A stretch of 30,013 nucleotides of DNA from a virus (lineage: Duplodnaviria; Heunggongvirae; Uroviricota; Caudoviricetes). A program made the position numbers and the translations under genes. This document shows positions 3,257-9,097 of the stretch, in pieces. The stretch is taken from the IMG/VR virus record IMGVR_UViG_3300000358_000074. One strand, written 5' to 3'. Every line of letters starts with the position of its first letter. Positions within the stretch are counted from its first letter, which is position 1. Under the pieces are notes generated by a model. The model was not told where the DNA came from and searched no databases. It saw nothing but the letters and a program-made list of their open reading frames with translations.

Positions 3257-3528
3257 GTATTCGTATTGAAATTGGCGAACGTTATGTCGTTACCAGTGAC
3301 AGCTTTCAGTTTATTCTCCACGAGAAAAAGAGAGCTGAAAGCGGTAAAAACGCCGGTCAGGAATGGCTGGCGGTGGTTGGTTATTACCCGAAATTAAGCC
3401 AGCTCGTTTCCGGCATGATGCATCACGATATTCTGACCGGAAGCGCAAAGTCTTTTGCTGATTTAAACGCGCAGGTTGAGCAACTCAGCAAGCGTTGTTC
3501 AGAGGCTTTTGGCTCATATGGCCGTTAA
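3253..3528 (+). CDS. Hypothetical early protein (P2 orf83 position)
   Basis: 91-aa ORF whose 3' end overlaps the start of A. Confidence 0.5.
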   Translation: MSIRIEIGERYVVTSDSFQFILHEKKRAESGKNAGQEWLAVVGYYPKLSQLVSGMMHHDILTGSAKSFADLNAQVEQLSKRCSEAFGSYGR

Positions 3529-5794
3529 AGCCTCCGGGCGTTTTGTCCCTCCGTCAGCATTTGCCGCAGGCACCGGTAAGGCGTTTACCGGTGCTTATGC
3601 ATGGAACGCGCCACGCGAGGCTGTCGGGCGCGAAAGACCCCTTACACGTGACGAGATGCGTCAGGTGCAAGGTGTTTTATCCACGATTAACCGCCTGCCT
3701 TACTTTTTGCGCTCGCTGTTTACTTCACGCTATGACTACATCCGGCGCAATAAAAGCCCGGTGCACGGGTTTTATTTCCTCACATCCACTTTTCAGCGTC
3801 GTTTATGGCCGCGCATTGAGCGTGTGAATCAGCGCCATGAAATGAACACCGACGCGTCGTTGCTGTTTCTGGCAGAGCGTGACCACTATGCGCGCCTGCC
3901 GGGAATGAATGACAAGGAGCTGAAAAAGTTTGCTGCCCGTATATCATCGCAGCTTTTCATGATGTATGAGGAACTCTGCGATGCCTGGGTGGATGCGCAT
4001 GGCGAAAAAGAATCGCTGTTTACGGATGAGGCGCAGGCTCACCTCTATGGTCATGTTGCTGGCGCTGCACGTGCTTTCAATATTTCCCCTCTCTACTGGA
4101 AAAAATACCGTAAAGGACAGATGACCACGAGGCAGGCATATTCTGCCATTGCCCGTCTGTTTAACGATGAGTGGTGGATTAGTCAGCTTCAAGGCCAGCG
4201 TATGCGCTGGCATGAGGCGTTACTGATTGCTGTCGGGGAGGTCAATAAAGACCGTTCTCCTTATGCCAGTAAACATGCCATTCGTGATGTGCGTGCACGC
4301 CGCCAGGCAAATCTGGAGTTTCTTAAATCGTGTGACCTTGAAAATAAGGAAACCGGCGAGCGCATTGACCTTATCAGTAAGGTGATGGGCAGTATTTCTA
4401 ATCCTGAAATTCGCCGGATGGAGCTGATGAACACCATTGCCGGTATTGAGCGTTACGCCGCTGCAGAGGGTGATGTGGGGATGTTTATCACGCTGACCGC
4501 GCCGTCAAAGTATCACCCGACACGTCAGGTCGGAAAAGGAGAAAGTAAAACCGTCCAGCTTAATCACGGCTGGAATGATGAGGCATTTAATCCAAAGGAT
4601 GCGCAGCGTTATCTCTGCCGTATCTGGAGCCTGGTGCGCACGGCATTCAAAGATAATGATTTACAGGTCTACGGTTTGCGAGTCGTCGAGCCACACCACG
4701 ACGGAACGCCGCACTGGCATATGATGCTTTTTTGTAATCCACGCCAGCGTAACCAGATTATCGAAATCATGCGTCGCTATGCGCTCAAAGAGGATGGCGA
4801 CGAAAGAGGAGCCGCGCGAAACCGTTTTCAGGCAAAACATCTTAACCGGGGCGGTGCTGCGGGATATATTGCTAAATACATCTCAAAAAATATCGACGGC
4901 TATGCACTGGATGGTCAGCTCGATAACGATACCGGCAGGCCGCTGAAAGACACTGCAGCGGCTGTTACCGCATGGGCGTCAACGTGGCGCATCCCACAAT
5001 TTAAAACGGTTGGTCTGCCGACAATGGGGGCTTACCGTGAACTACGCAAATTGCCTCGCGGCGTCAGCATTGCTGATGAGTTTGACGAGCGCGTCGAGGC
5101 TGCACGCGCCGCTGCAGACAGTGGTGATTTTGCGTTGTATATCAGCGCGCAGGGCGGGGCAAATGTCCCGCGCGATTGTCAGACTGTCAGGGTCGCCCGT
5201 AGCCCGTCGGATGACGTTAACGAGTACGAGGAAGAAGTCGAGAGAGTGGTCGGCATTTACGCGCCGCATCTCGGCGCGCGTCATATTCATATCACCAGAA
5301 CGACGGACTGGCGCATTGTGCCGAAAGTGCCGGTCGTTGAGCCTTTGACGTTAAAAAGCGGCATCGCCGCGCCTCGGAGTCCTGTCAATAACTGTGGAAA
5401 GCTCACCGGTGGTGATACTTCGTCACCGGCTCCCACGCCTTCTGAGCACGCCGCAGCAGTGCTTAATCTGGTTGATGACGGTGTTATCGAATGGAATGAC
5501 CCGGAGGTCGTGAGGGCGCTCAGAGGTGCATTAAAACACGAACTGAGAACACCAAATCGTCAGCAGAGAAACGGAAGCCCGTTAAAACCACATGAAATAG
5601 CGCCATCGGCCAGACTGACCCGGTCGGAACGAATGCAAATCACCCGTATCCGCGTTGACCTTGCTCAGAACGGTATCAGGCCTCAGCGATGGGAGCTTGA
5701 GGCGCTGGCGCGTGGCGCGACAGTAAATTATGACGGAATAAAATTCACGTATCCTGTCGCTGATGAGTGGCAGGGATTCACAATGGACCATTGA
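3518..5794 (+). CDS. A: Replication initiation endonuclease gpA (rolling-circle nickase)
   Basis: Large ORF (six-frame start 3476). Start set at the internal ATG 3518 (MAVKASGRFVPP...), which matches the P2 A N-terminus as recalled; contains HUH-like (PHWHMML) and YxxK-type (YIAKYISK) motifs of rolling-circle initiators. Confidence 0.9.
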   Translation: MAVKASGRFVPPSAFAAGTGKAFTGAYAWNAPREAVGRERPLTRDEMRQVQGVLSTINRLPYFLRSLFTSRYDYIRRNKSPVHGFYFLTSTFQRRLWPRIERVNQRHEMNTDASLLFLAERDHYARLPGMNDKELKKFAARISSQLFMMYEELCDAWVDAHGEKESLFTDEAQAHLYGHVAGAARAFNISPLYWKKYRKGQMTTRQAYSAIARLFNDEWWISQLQGQRMRWHEALLIAVGEVNKDRSPYASKHAIRDVRARRQANLEFLKSCDLENKETGERIDLISKVMGSISNPEIRRMELMNTIAGIERYAAAEGDVGMFITLTAPSKYHPTRQVGKGESKTVQLNHGWNDEAFNPKDAQRYLCRIWSLVRTAFKDNDLQVYGLRVVEPHHDGTPHWHMMLFCNPRQRNQIIEIMRRYALKEDGDERGAARNRFQAKHLNRGGAAGYIAKYISKNIDGYALDGQLDNDTGRPLKDTAAAVTAWASTWRIPQFKTVGLPTMGAYRELRKLPRGVSIADEFDERVEAARAAADSGDFALYISAQGGANVPRDCQTVRVARSPSDDVNEYEEEVERVVGIYAPHLGARHIHITRTTDWRIVPKVPVVEPLTLKSGIAAPRSPVNNCGKLTGGDTSSPAPTPSEHAAAVLNLVDDGVIEWNDPEVVRALRGALKHELRTPNRQQRNGSPLKPHEIAPSARLTRSERMQITRIRVDLAQNGIRPQRWELEALARGATVNYDGIKFTYPVADEWQGFTMDH

Positions 5795-5903: not shown

Positions 5904-7235
5904 ATGAACAATAACAGTCAGAAAGCTTTGAGTAAGAAGAAAACCAAGAAAACCAAAAAGAAGTCGCTTACCCCTGAACAAAAAGCATTGCAAGCAGAAC
6001 AAGCAGCAAAAAAAGCGCAAATTATAGAGAATAGGCGCTCTATTACAGCTCATGCTATTAACCTTTTTCAGCAATATACAGCACTCCGTAAAAAAGGATT
6101 AGATAGTTCCACTGCTACTTTGCAAGCTTATGCTGATTATGAAAAAGTACATGGACATAAATTCCTTAGTTCTATCTCTATGTGGACAAAAATCAAAACT
6201 GAAGCAGGGATTCGGATCTATGATCGTGAGAGACAAGATAGTCGTAAATCGCTTAATCTTGCTAAGATCCCAACCCGTTTAGAGGCTAAGCGTAGTGTAC
6301 TGACACAGAATCAAAAGAAAGTACATAACCAGAATGCAAATACATTACGCTTAATCGGTGGCAAAAAGCTACCTGTAACATCTATGGGGCTTATTGTATG
6401 TCCTGTCTGCGAGATACATATAAAAGATAGTGCTATAGAGTGGCATTTACGACACAACCACGTAGATCATATAGATAACCCGTTTACTAACCCTATAGTA
6501 GCTCCGGTTGATACTTTAGAAGAGGCTGTAGAAATACGAGACCTACTAATTGGTGATAAAACACTTCCGATTAAATCTAGTACTATTAATATGGGGAGTG
6601 ACAAGAAAGATAAACGTTATTTTAATAAGCAAGTTTATCAAACGGCATTGCTAACAATGACACAATCAGAAGCGTGGAAACTCGCGACTGATGAAGAATC
6701 TAGTATGACTTTTTTAAGCAATCAGTACATAAGTCCATTAACATCACCGGAACCCAATAATGAAATATCTCTTATCATGGATGGAACAGCTATAGCCATT
6801 AATGAAGGTCTAACTAATCCTTTAAAAGCCGCAAACGATACCTGTGCTACAGGACGAACAGTCGAGGTTACTCATAAAGTCCGTCATGCTGGAGATCAAG
6901 CTGATTTCAAACGCCGTGTTTGGGATAACTTCAATGGCAGATGTGCTATTACTGGCTATCCATTGCCAGAGGGGATATTGGAAGCCGCACATATTGAAGC
7001 AATAACAGAAGCGGCAAATAATAACACATCTAATGGCCTGTTACTTGAAGTAAGTTTGCACCGAATGTTTGATAAAGGATTGATGGGGATTAATCCAGAG
7101 GACTTAACGGTTCATTTCTCTATTAATTGTATCCACAAAACTATGTTTGAGGGTAAAACTCTACAACCACATCATGTAGAACTTGATGCTGACAAGTTGA
7201 TGACAAAATGGAAAAAGTTCAATGATAAGCGTTAA
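5904..7235 (+). CDS. Cargo protein with C-terminal HNH-type nuclease motif, lysine-rich N-terminus and a C2H2-like zinc finger; candidate anti-phage defence effector
   Basis: 443 aa. The C-terminus carries CAITG...LEAAHI...NGLLL...LHRMFDKGLMGI, the hallmark spacing of HNH (HNH_2-like) endonucleases. N-terminus is KKKTKKTKKKS; mid-region has CPVCEIHIKDSAIEWHLRHNH. The gene is AT-rich and sits where P2 has orf91/tin/old. Confidence 0.75.
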   Translation: MNNNSQKALSKKKTKKTKKKSLTPEQKALQAEQAAKKAQIIENRRSITAHAINLFQQYTALRKKGLDSSTATLQAYADYEKVHGHKFLSSISMWTKIKTEAGIRIYDRERQDSRKSLNLAKIPTRLEAKRSVLTQNQKKVHNQNANTLRLIGGKKLPVTSMGLIVCPVCEIHIKDSAIEWHLRHNHVDHIDNPFTNPIVAPVDTLEEAVEIRDLLIGDKTLPIKSSTINMGSDKKDKRYFNKQVYQTALLTMTQSEAWKLATDEESSMTFLSNQYISPLTSPEPNNEISLIMDGTAIAINEGLTNPLKAANDTCATGRTVEVTHKVRHAGDQADFKRRVWDNFNGRCAITGYPLPEGILEAAHIEAITEAANNNTSNGLLLEVSLHRMFDKGLMGINPEDLTVHFSINCIHKTMFEGKTLQPHHVELDADKLMTKWKKFNDKR

Positions 7236-7326
7236 CATGACTTCTTCTGGCGCAGCGAGGCATTAGATTTAATTATGTATTATGATTTAATTTGGGGCGT
7301 GATTTGTTATATGGGGAATAGATTAT

Positions 7327-7746
7327 ATGGTGACGCTTGATACTGTTTATTGGAAATTTGGTTATGCTTCGGAAGCAGCTCAATTACTGGAGACTGAGTT
7401 GATAAATATTATCACTGAGTATGATATGAGTCAGGGGAAAGATATACAGTCGCTGAAAAAACAGTTTTTAGAAATGGATAAATACACGCTGGGTAGATTG
7501 AATTACGCACTGAAGTCTAGGATGGTGGAGGATGCTGATACACTGGAGCGTGTGTCTGATGCTCTTAAAGCCAGAAACTACTTAGCACATGACTTTTATC
7601 GCAAACATGCTGAAGGTAAATTCACTCCGGAAGGAAGGCAGAGAATGCTTGCCGACTTAAATAGTGTACATCACATAATTTTTGAGGCTTACCGCAAGGT
7701 TCTGCAACTAAGCGACATTGAAATTCCTCCTTTAGAGCATGATTAA
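7327..7746 (+). CDS. Hypothetical protein, co-oriented partner of the HNH cargo gene
   Basis: 139-aa ORF 91 bp downstream of the HNH gene, same strand, same AT-rich composition, no motif I recognise; mildly acidic. Confidence 0.6.
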   Translation: MVTLDTVYWKFGYASEAAQLLETELINIITEYDMSQGKDIQSLKKQFLEMDKYTLGRLNYALKSRMVEDADTLERVSDALKARNYLAHDFYRKHAEGKFTPEGRQRMLADLNSVHHIIFEAYRKVLQLSDIEIPPLEHD

Positions 7747-7800: not shown

Positions 7801-7874
7801 TCGAGTGCCGTCAGTGTCGGCATGGTTTTGACGGATTCATACATGTGCATTAAAACCTCCCCATGAAGCGGGCG

Positions 7875-7893
7875 GGCGAGGCGGGGAAAGCAC
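7875..7893. other. cos: cos cohesive-end site (P2-type 19-nt sequence)
   Basis: GGCGAGGCGGGGAAAGCAC at 7875-7893, which is the P2 cohesive-end sequence as I recall it, at the expected place between the old-locus and Q; flanking GC-rich region has repeated gcgtgatg motifs. Confidence 0.6.
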
Positions 7894-8034
7894 TGCGCGC
7901 TGGCGGTGGTGCTGATTTTATTTTTTCAGCGTCTGAGCGCGTCGTGATGGCGTTTAGATTGTGCGCCGGGGCGTTGGTTTGTCTGCGGGCTGTTTTGCGC
8001 GGTGGTGAGCGTGTGAGGGCGTGATGACGGGTTG

Positions 8035-8057
8035 TAAAAAAGCCGCCCGCAGGCGGC
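8035..8057 (-). terminator. Rho-independent terminator downstream of Q
   Basis: On the minus strand GCCGCC-TGCG-GGCGGC followed by TTTTTT, immediately after the Q stop. Confidence 0.55.
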
Positions 8058-8062
8058 GATGT

Positions 8063-9097
8063 TCAGCCGTTGTCAGTGTCCAGTGAGTAGTTTTTAAAGC
8101 GGATGACCTCCTGACCGAGCCAGCCGTTTATCTCGCGGATCCTGTCCTGTAACGGGATAAGCTCATTGCGGACAAAGACCTTTGCCACTTTCTCAATATC
8201 TCCCAGTGACCCGACGTTCTCCGGCTTGCCGCCCATCAACTGAAAGGGGATGCGGTGTGCGTCCAGCAGGTCTGCGGCGCTGGCTTTTTTGATATTAAAA
8301 AAATCGTCCTTCGTCGCCACTTCACTGAGCGGGATAATTTTAATGCCGTCGGCTTTCCCTTGCGGGGCATAGAGAAACAGATTTTTAAAGTTGTTGCGGC
8401 CTTTCGACTTCACCATGTTTTCGCGGAGCATTTCGATATCGTTGCGATCCTGCACGGCATCGGTGACGTACATGATGTATCCGGCATGTGCGCCGTTTTC
8501 GTAATACTTGCGGCGGAACAGCGTGGCCGACTCATTCAGCCAGGCAGAGTTAAGGGCGCTGAGATATTCCGGCAGGCCGTACAGCTCCTGATTAATATCC
8601 GGCTCCAGCAGGTGAAACACGGAGCCGGGCGCGAAAGGTGTCGGCTCATGGAAGGACGGCACCCACCAGTAAACATCCTCTTCCACGCCACGGCGGGTAT
8701 ATTTTGCCGGTGAGGTTTCCAGTCTGATGACCTTACCGGTGGTGCTGTAACGCTTTTCCAGAAACGCATTACCGAACACCAGAAAATCCAGCACAAAGCG
8801 GCTGAAATCCTGCTGGGAAAGCCACGGATGCGGGATAAATGTCGAGGCCAGAATATTACGTTTGACGTAAATCGGTGAGCTGTGATGCACGGCAGCACGC
8901 AGGCTTTTTGCCAGACCGGTAAAGCTGACCGGTGGCTCATACCATCTGCCGTTACTGATGCACTCGACGTAATCCAGAATGTCACGGCGGTCGAGTACCG
9001 GCACCGGCTCACCAAAGGTGAATGCCTCCATTTTCGGGGCGCTGGCGGTCATTTTTTTTGCCGCAGGTTGCGGTGTTTTCCCTTTTTTCTTGCTCAT
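8063..9097 (-). CDS. Q: Portal protein gpQ
   Basis: 344 aa, matching P2 Q length; position adjacent to cos and transcribed away from the capsid genes, as in P2. Confidence 0.9.
   Translation of the reverse strand: MSKKKGKTPQPAAKKMTASAPKMEAFTFGEPVPVLDRRDILDYVECISNGRWYEPPVSFTGLAKSLRAAVHHSSPIYVKRNILASTFIPHPWLSQQDFSRFVLDFLVFGNAFLEKRYSTTGKVIRLETSPAKYTRRGVEEDVYWWVPSFHEPTPFAPGSVFHLLEPDINQELYGLPEYLSALNSAWLNESATLFRRKYYENGAHAGYIMYVTDAVQDRNDIEMLRENMVKSKGRNNFKNLFLYAPQGKADGIKIIPLSEVATKDDFFNIKKASAADLLDAHRIPFQLMGGKPENVGSLGDIEKVAKVFVRNELIPLQDRIREINGWLGQEVIRFKNYSLDTDNG

What the first reader, a model, noticed from the sequence alone, without database searches (positions are those of the whole stretch)
5904..7235. 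Unusual architecture of the HNH cargo protein: polylysine N-terminus, C2H2-like finger, C-terminal HNH nuclease
The C-terminal 70 residues show the canonical HNH_2-type pattern (CAITG...LEAAHI...NGLLL...LHRMFDKGL), which implies a metal-dependent DNA nuclease. The N-terminus is a low-complexity lysine tract (KKKTKKTKKK) encoded by an A-rich simple sequence, and residues ~168-190 read CPVC-x11-H-x4-H, resembling a C2H2 zinc finger. The ~200-residue central region has no motif I can name. A basic nucleic-acid-binding tail fused to a zinc finger and an HNH domain is not an architecture I can assign to a known family.
Basis: partly seen in the sequence, partly recalled or inferred. Interest (0 to 1): 0.7.

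Follow-up and report, generated by a model that had tools for sequence, protein, structure and literature searches.

The report
Zinc-finger HNH nuclease on P2 prophage
A P2-like prophage carries, in its known slot for anti-phage cargo, an uncharacterised gene that joins a eukaryote-style C2H2 zinc finger to an HNH DNA-cutting domain. It is most likely a stand-alone defence nuclease, and its 139-aa neighbour is a separate module rather than its partner.

Summary
ORF 5904-7235 (+) encodes 443 aa with a Lys tract (aa 11-20), a C166-x2-C169-x11-H181-x4-H186 finger and an HNH_2 domain (Pfam E 1.1e-10). The finger ligands and the catalytic H363/N377/H386 are (near-)invariant across about 60 relatives.

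The gene lies between P2 gpA (3476-5794) and cos/portal gpQ, which is the published defence hotspot of P2-like phages. It is low in GC (38% against 52-58%).

The family is small, confined to Enterobacterales and uncharacterised. PHROGs lists it as unknown function, no PADLOC system covers more than its HNH part, and the Rousset 2022 table lists the locus only as "HNH_2 + hypothetical". Relatives sit alone in other mobile islands, with no conserved neighbour; where neighbours had Pfam or record annotation, none is a methyltransferase.

The "200-residue central region" is predicted to be mostly disordered linker around one small helical domain. The HNH domain is closest to those of the modification-dependent enzymes VcaM4I and TagI, but no known modification sensor is present.

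The 139-aa gene is separable: 18 of the 30 E. coli genomes that carry it lack the HNH gene, and its dS is 0.36 against 0.07 for the HNH gene.

Best reading: a single-gene defence nuclease with unknown trigger, a new variant of a known kind. No function was tested.

The parts
5904..7235 (+). ORF of the 443-aa zinc-finger/HNH_2 protein (stop codon included)
   Evidence: for the ORF. N-terminus conserved in relatives. dN/dS 0.23 against the E. coli ortholog. PHROG phrog_20585 at E 8.5e-178.
5934..5963 (+). Lys tract KKKTKKTKKK (aa 11-20), containing 2.2 copies of the 9-bp unit AAGAAAACC
   Evidence: The number of K-rich units varies among close relatives (P0007, P0009), and other subfamilies lack the tract.
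5973..6332 (+). Predicted N-terminal helical region (helices aa 24-63, 68-87, 91-116, 125-143). Possible dimerisation or scaffold module.
   Evidence: AF2 model with pLDDT about 86-96 for aa 31-110 and about 57-65 for the last helix. G65 is nearly invariant. No specific fold match.
6345..6461 (+). Single classical-type C2H2 zinc finger (C166, C169, H181, H186) with two extra beta-strands ahead of it (aa 148-186)
   Evidence: Ligands conserved. AF2 gives beta-hairpin plus helix at pLDDT 77-88. Weak profile hits to C2H2 fingers in the PDB (E 0.005-0.01) and to Pfam C2H2 families in relatives.
6498..6614 (+). Predicted disordered linker (aa 199-237). The 500-512-aa relatives carry about 58 extra residues here.
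   Evidence: pLDDT below 50. Alignment A3.
6621..6728 (+). Small conserved helical domain (aa 240-275; Y245 and A257 invariant in alignment A3, nearly so in the wider family), function unknown
   Evidence: AF2 pLDDT about 85. Conservation.
6888..7232 (+). HNH_2 (His-Me finger) nuclease domain with preceding helix and C-terminal extension (aa 329-443). Catalytic H363, N377 and H386.
7327..7746 (+). Neighbouring 139-aa ORF. All-helical, with an invariant R83-N84-x-L86-x-H88 motif (HEPN-like). A separable hotspot module, not an obligate partner.
   Evidence: Occurs without the HNH gene and the HNH family occurs without it. PHROG phrog_12893, unknown function.
3476..5794 (+). Left flank of the hotspot: P2-type replication endonuclease gpA
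   Evidence: 98% identical to the annotated 'replication endonuclease' in L001.
7875..7893 (+). Right flank: 19-nt P2 cohesive-end sequence GGCGAGGCGGGGAAAGCAC. The sequence was recalled from memory; its presence here was tested.
   Evidence: Exact single match. The surrounding 7846-8062 is 97-98% identical to phage P2 records.
8063..9097 (-). Right flank: portal protein gpQ
   Evidence: 99% identical to the annotated 'phage portal protein'.

Best explanation
The ORF encodes an intact member of a small, uncharacterised family found only in Enterobacterales. Its layout is a variable helical N-terminal region (here with a Lys-rich tail), one classical C2H2 zinc finger, flexible linkers around a small helical domain, and a C-terminal HNH_2 nuclease domain.

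In this window it is a low-GC accessory gene in the cos-proximal gpA-gpQ hotspot of a P2-like prophage. That is the slot where P2 itself carries old and tin, and where other P2-like phages carry retrons, restriction enzymes and other anti-phage genes.

Most likely it is a stand-alone (single-gene) defence or exclusion nuclease expressed from the prophage. By analogy with VcaM4I, the HNH_2 domains would dimerise and be non-specific on their own. The finger, helical domain and N-terminal region would supply nucleic-acid targeting, auto-inhibition or both, so that only foreign DNA (for example hypermodified phage DNA) or an infection cue releases cleavage.

Shown here: location, domain content, conservation of metal and catalytic residues, absence of a conserved neighbour, and no methyltransferase in the neighbourhoods that carried annotation. 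Inferred: expression, dimerisation, target, and the anti-phage phenotype.
For: Location:
- The gene sits between gpA and cos/gpQ.
- This interval is the published P2 defence hotspot (PMC9122126 section 10).
- That paper's locus table lists 'HNH_2 + hypothetical', including WP_023281582, the 139-aa protein annotated in L001.
- GC is 38-42% against 52-58% in the flanks.

Active-looking nuclease:
- HNH_2 at E 1.1e-10.
- H363, N377 and H386 are invariant.
- dN/dS is 0.23.

Stand-alone gene in mobile or defence contexts:
- Citrobacter island beside an AAA_15/OLD-TOPRIM protein plus a UvrD helicase pair (Gabija-like) and a resolvase.
- Cronobacter islet with an integrase.
- K. aerogenes island beside smpB, with NACHT, CbtA/CbeA and CdiI genes.
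- Directly downstream of a P4-alpha-type primase in Pantoea and Serratia.
- No conserved neighbour across these contexts and no 139-aa homolog outside P2.
- No methyltransferase in the Pfam-annotated neighbourhoods or in the annotated E. coli record; L015-L021 were only sampled.

Prior: 6 of 8 randomly chosen unannotated loci from P4 hotspots gave phage protection (PMC13586616).
Against: - No experiment on this family was found.
- No PADLOC model of a known or candidate system covers more than the HNH part.
- No recognisable modification-sensor fold is present, so the type IV analogy rests on the nuclease domain only.
- Inter-domain confidence in the model is low (pTM 0.29).
- One finger cannot give much sequence specificity.
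- The promoter-like sites upstream are no more frequent than in shuffled sequence.
- The gene is rare, in 12 of 5426 complete E. coli genomes, and is IS3-disrupted in one.
- The window's form lacks about 58 residues that the 500-aa relatives have, so it could be impaired.
Confidence: 0.5

Rival explanations
1. Two-gene toxin/antitoxin or nuclease/immunity pair. The HNH protein is the toxic effector and the 139-aa protein neutralises or regulates it; alternatively the two act together as one defence system.
For: - The genes are adjacent on the same strand with a 91-bp gap, in the window and in 12 E. coli genomes.
- Rousset's table lists them together as 'HNH_2 + hypothetical'.
- An unrestrained HNH_2 domain is toxic in VcaM4I.
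Against: - 18 of the 30 E. coli genomes with the 139-aa gene lack the HNH gene and carry hyp+hyp+DUF2971 instead.
- None of the non-P2 loci holding an HNH family member has a 139-aa homolog within 6-8 kb, and no other conserved neighbour exists.
- Within the same cassette, dS is 0.07 for the HNH gene and 0.36 for the 139-aa gene, with a similarity break just after the HNH stop codon.
Confidence: 0.12
2. Free-standing homing-type (selfish) endonuclease. It would cut hotspot DNA of related P2-like genomes that lack it and spread by recombinational repair, rather than defending the host.
For: - HNH plus a small DNA-binding module is a common homing-endonuclease layout (general knowledge).
- The gene sits between conserved phage genes in a mosaic region with sharp similarity breaks.
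- The family turns up in several unrelated mobile contexts.
Against: - The nuclease belongs to HNH_2 (PF13391), whose characterised members in the papers read here are restriction enzymes.
- There is no full-length relative in 50,697 sequenced phage genomes.
- Many relatives sit in chromosomal islands rather than in collinear phage genomes.
- The gene is very rare in P2-like prophages, which is not expected of an efficient homing element.
Confidence: 0.1
3. Decaying or non-functional cargo: a deletion derivative of the 500-aa form that no longer works.
For: - About 58 residues between the finger and the helical domain are missing relative to the 500-512-aa relatives.
- One E. coli copy is IS3-interrupted.
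- The gene is rare.
Against: - The reading frame is intact.
- All metal and catalytic residues are kept.
- dN/dS is 0.23 in every segment tested.
- The 443-aa form is shared at 96% protein identity by a 57-sequence cluster (P0001) and by 11 intact E. coli genome copies.
- More distant relatives (P0011, P0012, subfamilies B and C) also lack that segment.
Confidence: 0.08
4. cos-associated HNH accessory factor for terminase, as in HK97-type phages, helping DNA packaging.
For: - The gene lies about 640 bp from cos and about 1.9 kb upstream of the terminase gene, next to the portal and terminase genes.
- Many phages encode an HNH endonuclease next to cos and terminase (abstract of PMC3592412).
Against: - The gene is absent from almost all P2-like phages, which package without it.
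- Relatives occur in non-phage islands.
- The cos-adjacent packaging enzymes are described as having a [CxxC]2 zinc site in the HNH domain (abstract of PMC3592412). This protein has only single cysteines there (C347, C409). That those enzymes are also small is from memory.
Confidence: 0.03

Closest known systems
VcaM4I (EVE-HNH) and TagI (SRA-HNH), modification-dependent type IV restriction endonucleases
   Different: The match covers only the nuclease domain. This family has no PUA/EVE/SRA sensor. It has instead a C2H2 finger, a small helical domain and long disordered linkers. Modification dependence is untested.
EcoKMcrA (e14 prophage-encoded HNH type IV enzyme; recalled from memory and cited in PMC7897488)
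   Same: A prophage-borne, single-gene HNH nuclease with an N-terminal DNA-binding domain that restricts foreign DNA.
   Different: It has a different N-terminal domain (NEco, a 5mC reader). It was not retrieved in the PDB profile search at E <= 1.
Cargo of the P2 gpA-gpQ hotspot (old, tin, retrons, DUF4238, DprA+PRTase and others; Rousset 2022)
   Same: Same genomic slot, same low-GC moron character, and same modular swapping. The arrangement 'HNH_2 + hypothetical' is listed in that paper's locus table.
   Different: It is not named among the systems that paper cloned and reported and has no assigned name or phenotype.
Engineered zinc-finger nucleases and natural zinc-ribbon HNH endonucleases (PMC3592412)
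   Same: A zinc-binding DNA-recognition element joined to a non-specific nuclease domain.
   Different: Here there is one natural classical C2H2 finger (two in P0018), not an array, and not a zinc ribbon. The nuclease is HNH_2, not FokI or the cos-associated HNH described in that paper.

Membership tests
HNH_2 (PF13391), His-Me finger nucleases | Score above the Pfam gathering threshold, and a beta-beta-alpha motif carrying the catalytic His, Asn and His/Asp | tested here: met
   41.6 bits against 21. H363, N377 and H386 are invariant in 61 sequences. AF2 places strands at 359-361 and 380-382 and a helix at 383-390.
Classical C2H2 zinc finger | C-x2-4-C-x12-H-x3-5-H with conserved hydrophobic positions and a beta-hairpin plus helix fold | tested here: inconclusive
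   The four ligands are conserved and the predicted fold fits. Subfamilies B and C have the exact consensus. P0123, a distant hit that matches only the small helical domain of the query, passes the zf-C2H2_6 and zf-met cut-offs. The query itself has x11 spacing and reaches no Pfam C2H2 cut-off. Zinc binding was not measured.
Type IV (modification-dependent) restriction endonuclease | A recognisable modified-base sensor domain (PUA/EVE/SRA/YTH, SBD, NEco or winged helix) | tested here: not met
   No Pfam, NCBIfam or PADLOC hit outside the HNH domain and the finger. No such fold in the AF2 model or in the fold searches.
Type IV (modification-dependent) restriction endonuclease | Solitary nuclease gene without a cognate methyltransferase | tested here: met
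   No methyltransferase family in the Pfam-annotated neighbourhoods or in the annotated E. coli record L001. No conserved neighbour. L015-L021 were only sampled.
Type IV (modification-dependent) restriction endonuclease | Cleavage depends on modified bases | not testable with these tools
   Needs an enzyme assay or phage plating with modified and unmodified DNA.
NCBIfam NF045808, phosphorothioated-DNA-binding restriction endonuclease | Score above the curated cut-off over the full model | tested here: not met
   31.7 bits against 180, and only model positions 161-254 matched.
Known or candidate defence systems in PADLOC-DB 2.0 | Full-length match to a system protein model | tested here: not met
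   Only partial HNH matches, to PDLC04132 and PDLC03546.
P2-like phage hotspot cargo (Rousset 2022) | Located between gpA and gpQ next to cos | tested here: met
   Definition of the hotspot.
P2-like phage hotspot cargo (Rousset 2022) | Demonstrated anti-phage activity | not testable with these tools
   No report found.
Toxin-antitoxin or nuclease-immunity pair with the 139-aa gene | Conserved co-occurrence of the two genes | tested here: not met
Homing endonuclease | Cleaves the cognate gene-less allele and is copied into it | not testable with these tools
   Indirect evidence only. No full-length relative in sequenced phages, and the gene is rare in P2 prophages.
HEPN domain (for the neighbouring 139-aa protein) | Rx4-6H motif in an all-helical bundle of about 130 aa | tested here: inconclusive

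The most novel reading that the evidence does not exclude
A natural 'zinc-finger nuclease' of bacteria and their prophages. In this reading, a eukaryote-type classical C2H2 finger (one or two per protein), not a PUA/SRA-type reader, is the element that recognises foreign nucleic acid, or an infection cue, and licenses an HNH_2 nuclease. That would define a new class of single-gene anti-phage system spread among P2 hotspots, P4-like elements and defence islands of Enterobacterales.
Probability: 0.25. Interest if true: 0.65.

Novelty: new variant of a known kind. Interest (0 to 1): 0.45.

Why it matters
If the protein protects against phages, it adds a compact single-gene system (1.3 kb) to the cargo of the P2 hotspot. 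It would also show a new way of directing an HNH_2 nuclease, through a classical C2H2 finger, a fold that is rare in bacteria. Separately, the locus is a clean example of module swapping inside the hotspot, because two adjacent genes have five-fold different divergence. In practice it is a cheap candidate for a plaque-assay screen. The finding does not overturn current views, since solitary sensor-nuclease fusions in defence hotspots are expected.

Tried and rejected
- Foldseek of the full model against the PDB found nothing at E <= 0.001.
- The afdb50 library was unavailable.
- A search with the non-HNH part (aa 21-330) against 1.84 billion representatives gave 7 hits. Most are family members or fragments; the weakest three (P0121-P0123) could not be placed.
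- A profile of the finger-to-HNH region against 5.8 billion proteins gave 12 hits, again family members or fragments. No alternative effector fusion was found that would mark the N-terminal part as a portable sensor.
- I suspected that the 58-aa segment present in the 500-aa relatives is an AP2-like DNA-binding domain, from the look of '...KWFDTLEEAVEVRNLL'. Pfam gave no AP2 hit, so this stays an untested resemblance.
- The 139-aa ORF in the Cronobacter locus L004 looked like a possible partner homolog, but it is unrelated.
- Rfam found no RNA family in the window.
- There are no notable repeats around the cassette.
- Promoter-like sites are at the shuffled-sequence background level.
- Literature searches for a characterised HNH_2 or C2H2-HNH defence protein found none.

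Full report
**What is at the coordinates**

The window is an almost complete P2-like prophage. ORF 5904-7235 (+) encodes 443 aa. It lies 109 bp downstream of the P2-type replication endonuclease gene gpA (3476-5794). A 139-aa ORF follows (7327-7746), then the 19-nt P2 cohesive-end sequence (7875-7893), then portal gpQ (8063-9097, minus strand) and terminase gpP. The cos sequence itself was recalled from memory; only its presence was tested. Annotated E. coli prophages with the same cassette confirm these gene identities.

GC falls to 38-42% across the two ORFs, against 52-58% in the phage backbone. This gpA-gpQ, cos-proximal interval is the published hotspot of anti-phage cargo in P2-like phages, where P2 itself carries old and tin (PMC9122126). 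That paper's locus table lists the arrangement 'HNH_2 + hypothetical', including WP_023281582, the 139-aa protein annotated in L001. It is not named among the systems the authors cloned and reported.

**Checking the observation**

- KKKTKKTKKK occupies aa 11-20, encoded by 2.2 copies of AAGAAAACC.
- The finger reads C166-x2-C169-x11-H181-x4-H186.
- CAITG, LEAAHI, NGLLL and LHRMFDKGL start at aa 347, 359, 377 and 385.
- Pfam HNH_2 matches aa 347-397 at E 1.1e-10, above its gathering score.

Conservation shows these are functional features rather than chance strings.
- In an alignment of 56 sequences (the query plus 55 relatives), the four finger ligands are kept in 53-54.
- In a 16-sequence alignment of the central region, with only 15-20% identity to the query among distant members, the only invariant positions are the four ligands plus Y245, A257 and R327.
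- The catalytic H363, N377 and H386 are invariant in 61 sequences.
- Other subfamilies carry the textbook classical pattern C-x2-C-x3-F-x5-L-x2-H-x4-H, and one member (P0018) has a second finger.
- Members weakly match several Pfam C2H2 models (best E 4e-4).
- A family profile weakly matches classical fingers in the PDB (E 0.005-0.01).
- The Lys-rich tail is conserved only in the closest subfamily, with a variable number of units.

**Anatomy**

An AlphaFold2 model built on 61 sequences has mean pLDDT 65 and pTM 0.29. It predicts the following segments.

| Residues | Prediction | pLDDT |
|---|---|---|
| 24-116 | three long helices | about 86-96 over aa 31-110 |
| 125-143 | one further helix | about 57-65 |
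| 148-185 | beta-rich unit ending in the finger's hairpin and helix | 77-88 |
| 199-237 | disordered linker | below 50 |
| 242-275 | small three-helix domain | about 85 |
| 275-330 | disordered linker | below 50 |
| 329-443 | HNH domain with the expected beta-beta-alpha core | lower confidence |

So the 'unnamed 200-residue central region' is mostly linker around one small conserved domain. The 500-512-aa relatives carry about 58 extra residues in the first linker, and the window's form keeps only their tail, 'TLEEAVEIRDLLIGD'.

**Family and distribution**

- The full-length family appears only in Enterobacterales: Escherichia, Citrobacter, Pectobacterium, Buttiauxella, Enterobacter, Klebsiella, Cronobacter, Pantoea, Serratia, Salmonella and Edwardsiella.
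- The non-HNH part has essentially no relatives outside the family: 7 hits among 1.84 billion representatives, and 12 family members or fragments in a profile search.
- PHROGs holds the family as phrog_20585, 'unknown function'.
- PADLOC and NCBIfam recognise only the nuclease domain.
- None of 50,697 sequenced phage genomes has a full-length relative.
- Among 5426 complete E. coli genomes, 12 carry the gene at 97% DNA identity, all chromosomal. The one opened (L001) lies in the P2 hotspot, and all 12 match the window's whole cassette through cos. One copy is split by an IS3 element.

**Genomic contexts elsewhere**

| Organism | Context |
|---|---|
| Citrobacter | island next to a Gabija-like AAA_15/OLD-TOPRIM protein plus UvrD pair, and a resolvase |
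| Cronobacter | integrase-bearing islet |
| K. aerogenes | island beside smpB, with NACHT, CbtA/CbeA and CdiI genes |
| Pantoea, Serratia | immediately downstream of a 776-777-aa P4-alpha-type primase-helicase |

An all-against-all comparison of neighbouring ORFs found no partner conserved across these contexts. The only recurring neighbour is a serine recombinase, in three of them. No methyltransferase appears in the Pfam-annotated neighbourhoods or in the annotated E. coli record; L015-L021 were only sampled. The gene therefore behaves as a solitary mobile module.

**The 139-aa neighbour**

It is not an obligate partner.
- It occurs in 30 complete E. coli genomes. Eighteen of them lack the HNH gene and carry hyp+hyp+DUF2971 upstream instead.
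- No HNH-family locus outside P2 has a homolog of it.
- Against the same E. coli cassette, the HNH gene has dS 0.07 and the 139-aa gene has dS 0.36.
- DNA similarity to the HNH-less hotspots starts at window position 7252, 17 bp after the HNH stop codon. The two genes were joined by recombination.

**How it most likely works**

Shown here:
- an intact gene under purifying selection (dN/dS 0.23);
- conserved metal and catalytic residues;
- a position in a defence hotspot;
- no conserved companion gene, and no methyltransferase where neighbours were annotated.

Taken from VcaM4I (PMC7897488): HNH_2 domains dimerise, cut DNA non-specifically and are toxic when isolated. The N-terminal part both targets and auto-inhibits them.

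Inferred: here the finger, the small helical domain and the helical N-terminus take that targeting and restraining role. Because E. coli DNA carries Dam and Dcm methylation (general knowledge), any modification target would have to be something else, for example the hypermodified bases of T-even-like phages. Alternatively the enzyme could be released by an infection cue and act abortively. I put this single-gene defence-nuclease reading at about 0.5.

The rivals are a two-gene pair with the 139-aa protein (0.12), a homing-type selfish nuclease (0.10), a decaying gene (0.08) and a packaging accessory HNH (0.03).

**Comparison with what is known, and verdict**

The protein works most like the solitary sensor-plus-HNH restriction enzymes (VcaM4I, TagI, EcoKMcrA). 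It fails the membership test for them, because no known sensor domain is present. It is not in PADLOC as a system, and it has no name or phenotype in the literature I could search.

It is therefore a new variant of a known kind: a catalogued but uncharacterised family with an unusual classical C2H2 finger joined to an HNH_2 nuclease. Interest is moderate. It is a good, cheap candidate for experimental testing rather than a surprise.

Noticed in passing
window 7327-7746 (+): The 139-aa ORF has an invariant R83-N84-x-L86-x-H88 motif in a confident all-helical model, which resembles a minimal HEPN RNase. PHROGs lists it as unknown function. It sits at the cos-proximal edge of the hotspot in 30 complete E. 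coli genomes, with two different upstream cargos.
   Followed up: partly
window 7236-7252 (between the two ORFs): There is a recombination junction here. Similarity to HNH-less hotspots begins at 7252. Against the same E. coli cassette, the HNH gene is 97.2% identical (dS 0.07) but the 139-aa gene only 86.9% (dS 0.36).
   Followed up: yes
window about 6500-6560 (aa 199-218); relatives P0002-P0006 and P0008-P0010: Relatives of 500-512 aa have about 58 extra residues between the finger and the helical domain, and the window's protein keeps only the tail 'TLEEAVEIRDLLIGD'. By eye the segment looks AP2-like, but Pfam gives no hit.
   Followed up: partly
E. coli O139:H1 W13-16, NZ_CP080235.1 2278-5881 (hits H10, H72): The orthologous HNH gene is interrupted by an IS3-family transposase in one of the 12 E. 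coli genomes that carry it.
   Followed up: no
L019:4568-6898 and L021:4391-6724: In Pantoea and Serratia, family members lie directly downstream of a 776-777-aa P4-alpha-type primase-helicase (Zn_Ribbon_Prim, Toprim_3, D5_N, Pox_D5). This suggests carriage on P4-like or related satellites as well as on P2.
   Followed up: partly
L095:2171-2869 (Salmonella phage SeKF_80; also phages 7-11 and SE131): A 232-aa protein of virulent Moazamivirus-type phages, annotated 'ParB-like partition protein', shares 46-48% identity with aa 317-439 of the query. The same HNH_2 module with its C-terminal extension is joined there to a different short N-terminus.
   Followed up: no
L013/L014:about 940-1760 and L019:9398-10147: Short proteins with a CdiA-CT RNase A domain recur near family members in K. 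aerogenes and Pantoea, and in K. aerogenes a CdiI_2 immunity gene sits beside them. This may be coincidence or a shared island type.
   Followed up: no
P0018 (460 aa; alignment A3, columns about 70-95): One subfamily carries a second C-x2-C-x11-H-x4-H finger after the first, so the number of fingers varies within the family.
   Followed up: no
window aa 347, 404, 409 (nt about 6942-7130): C347 is invariant, and H404 and C409 are (near-)invariant, outside the catalytic triad of the HNH domain. They may form a second, structural metal site. The geometry was not examined.
   Followed up: no
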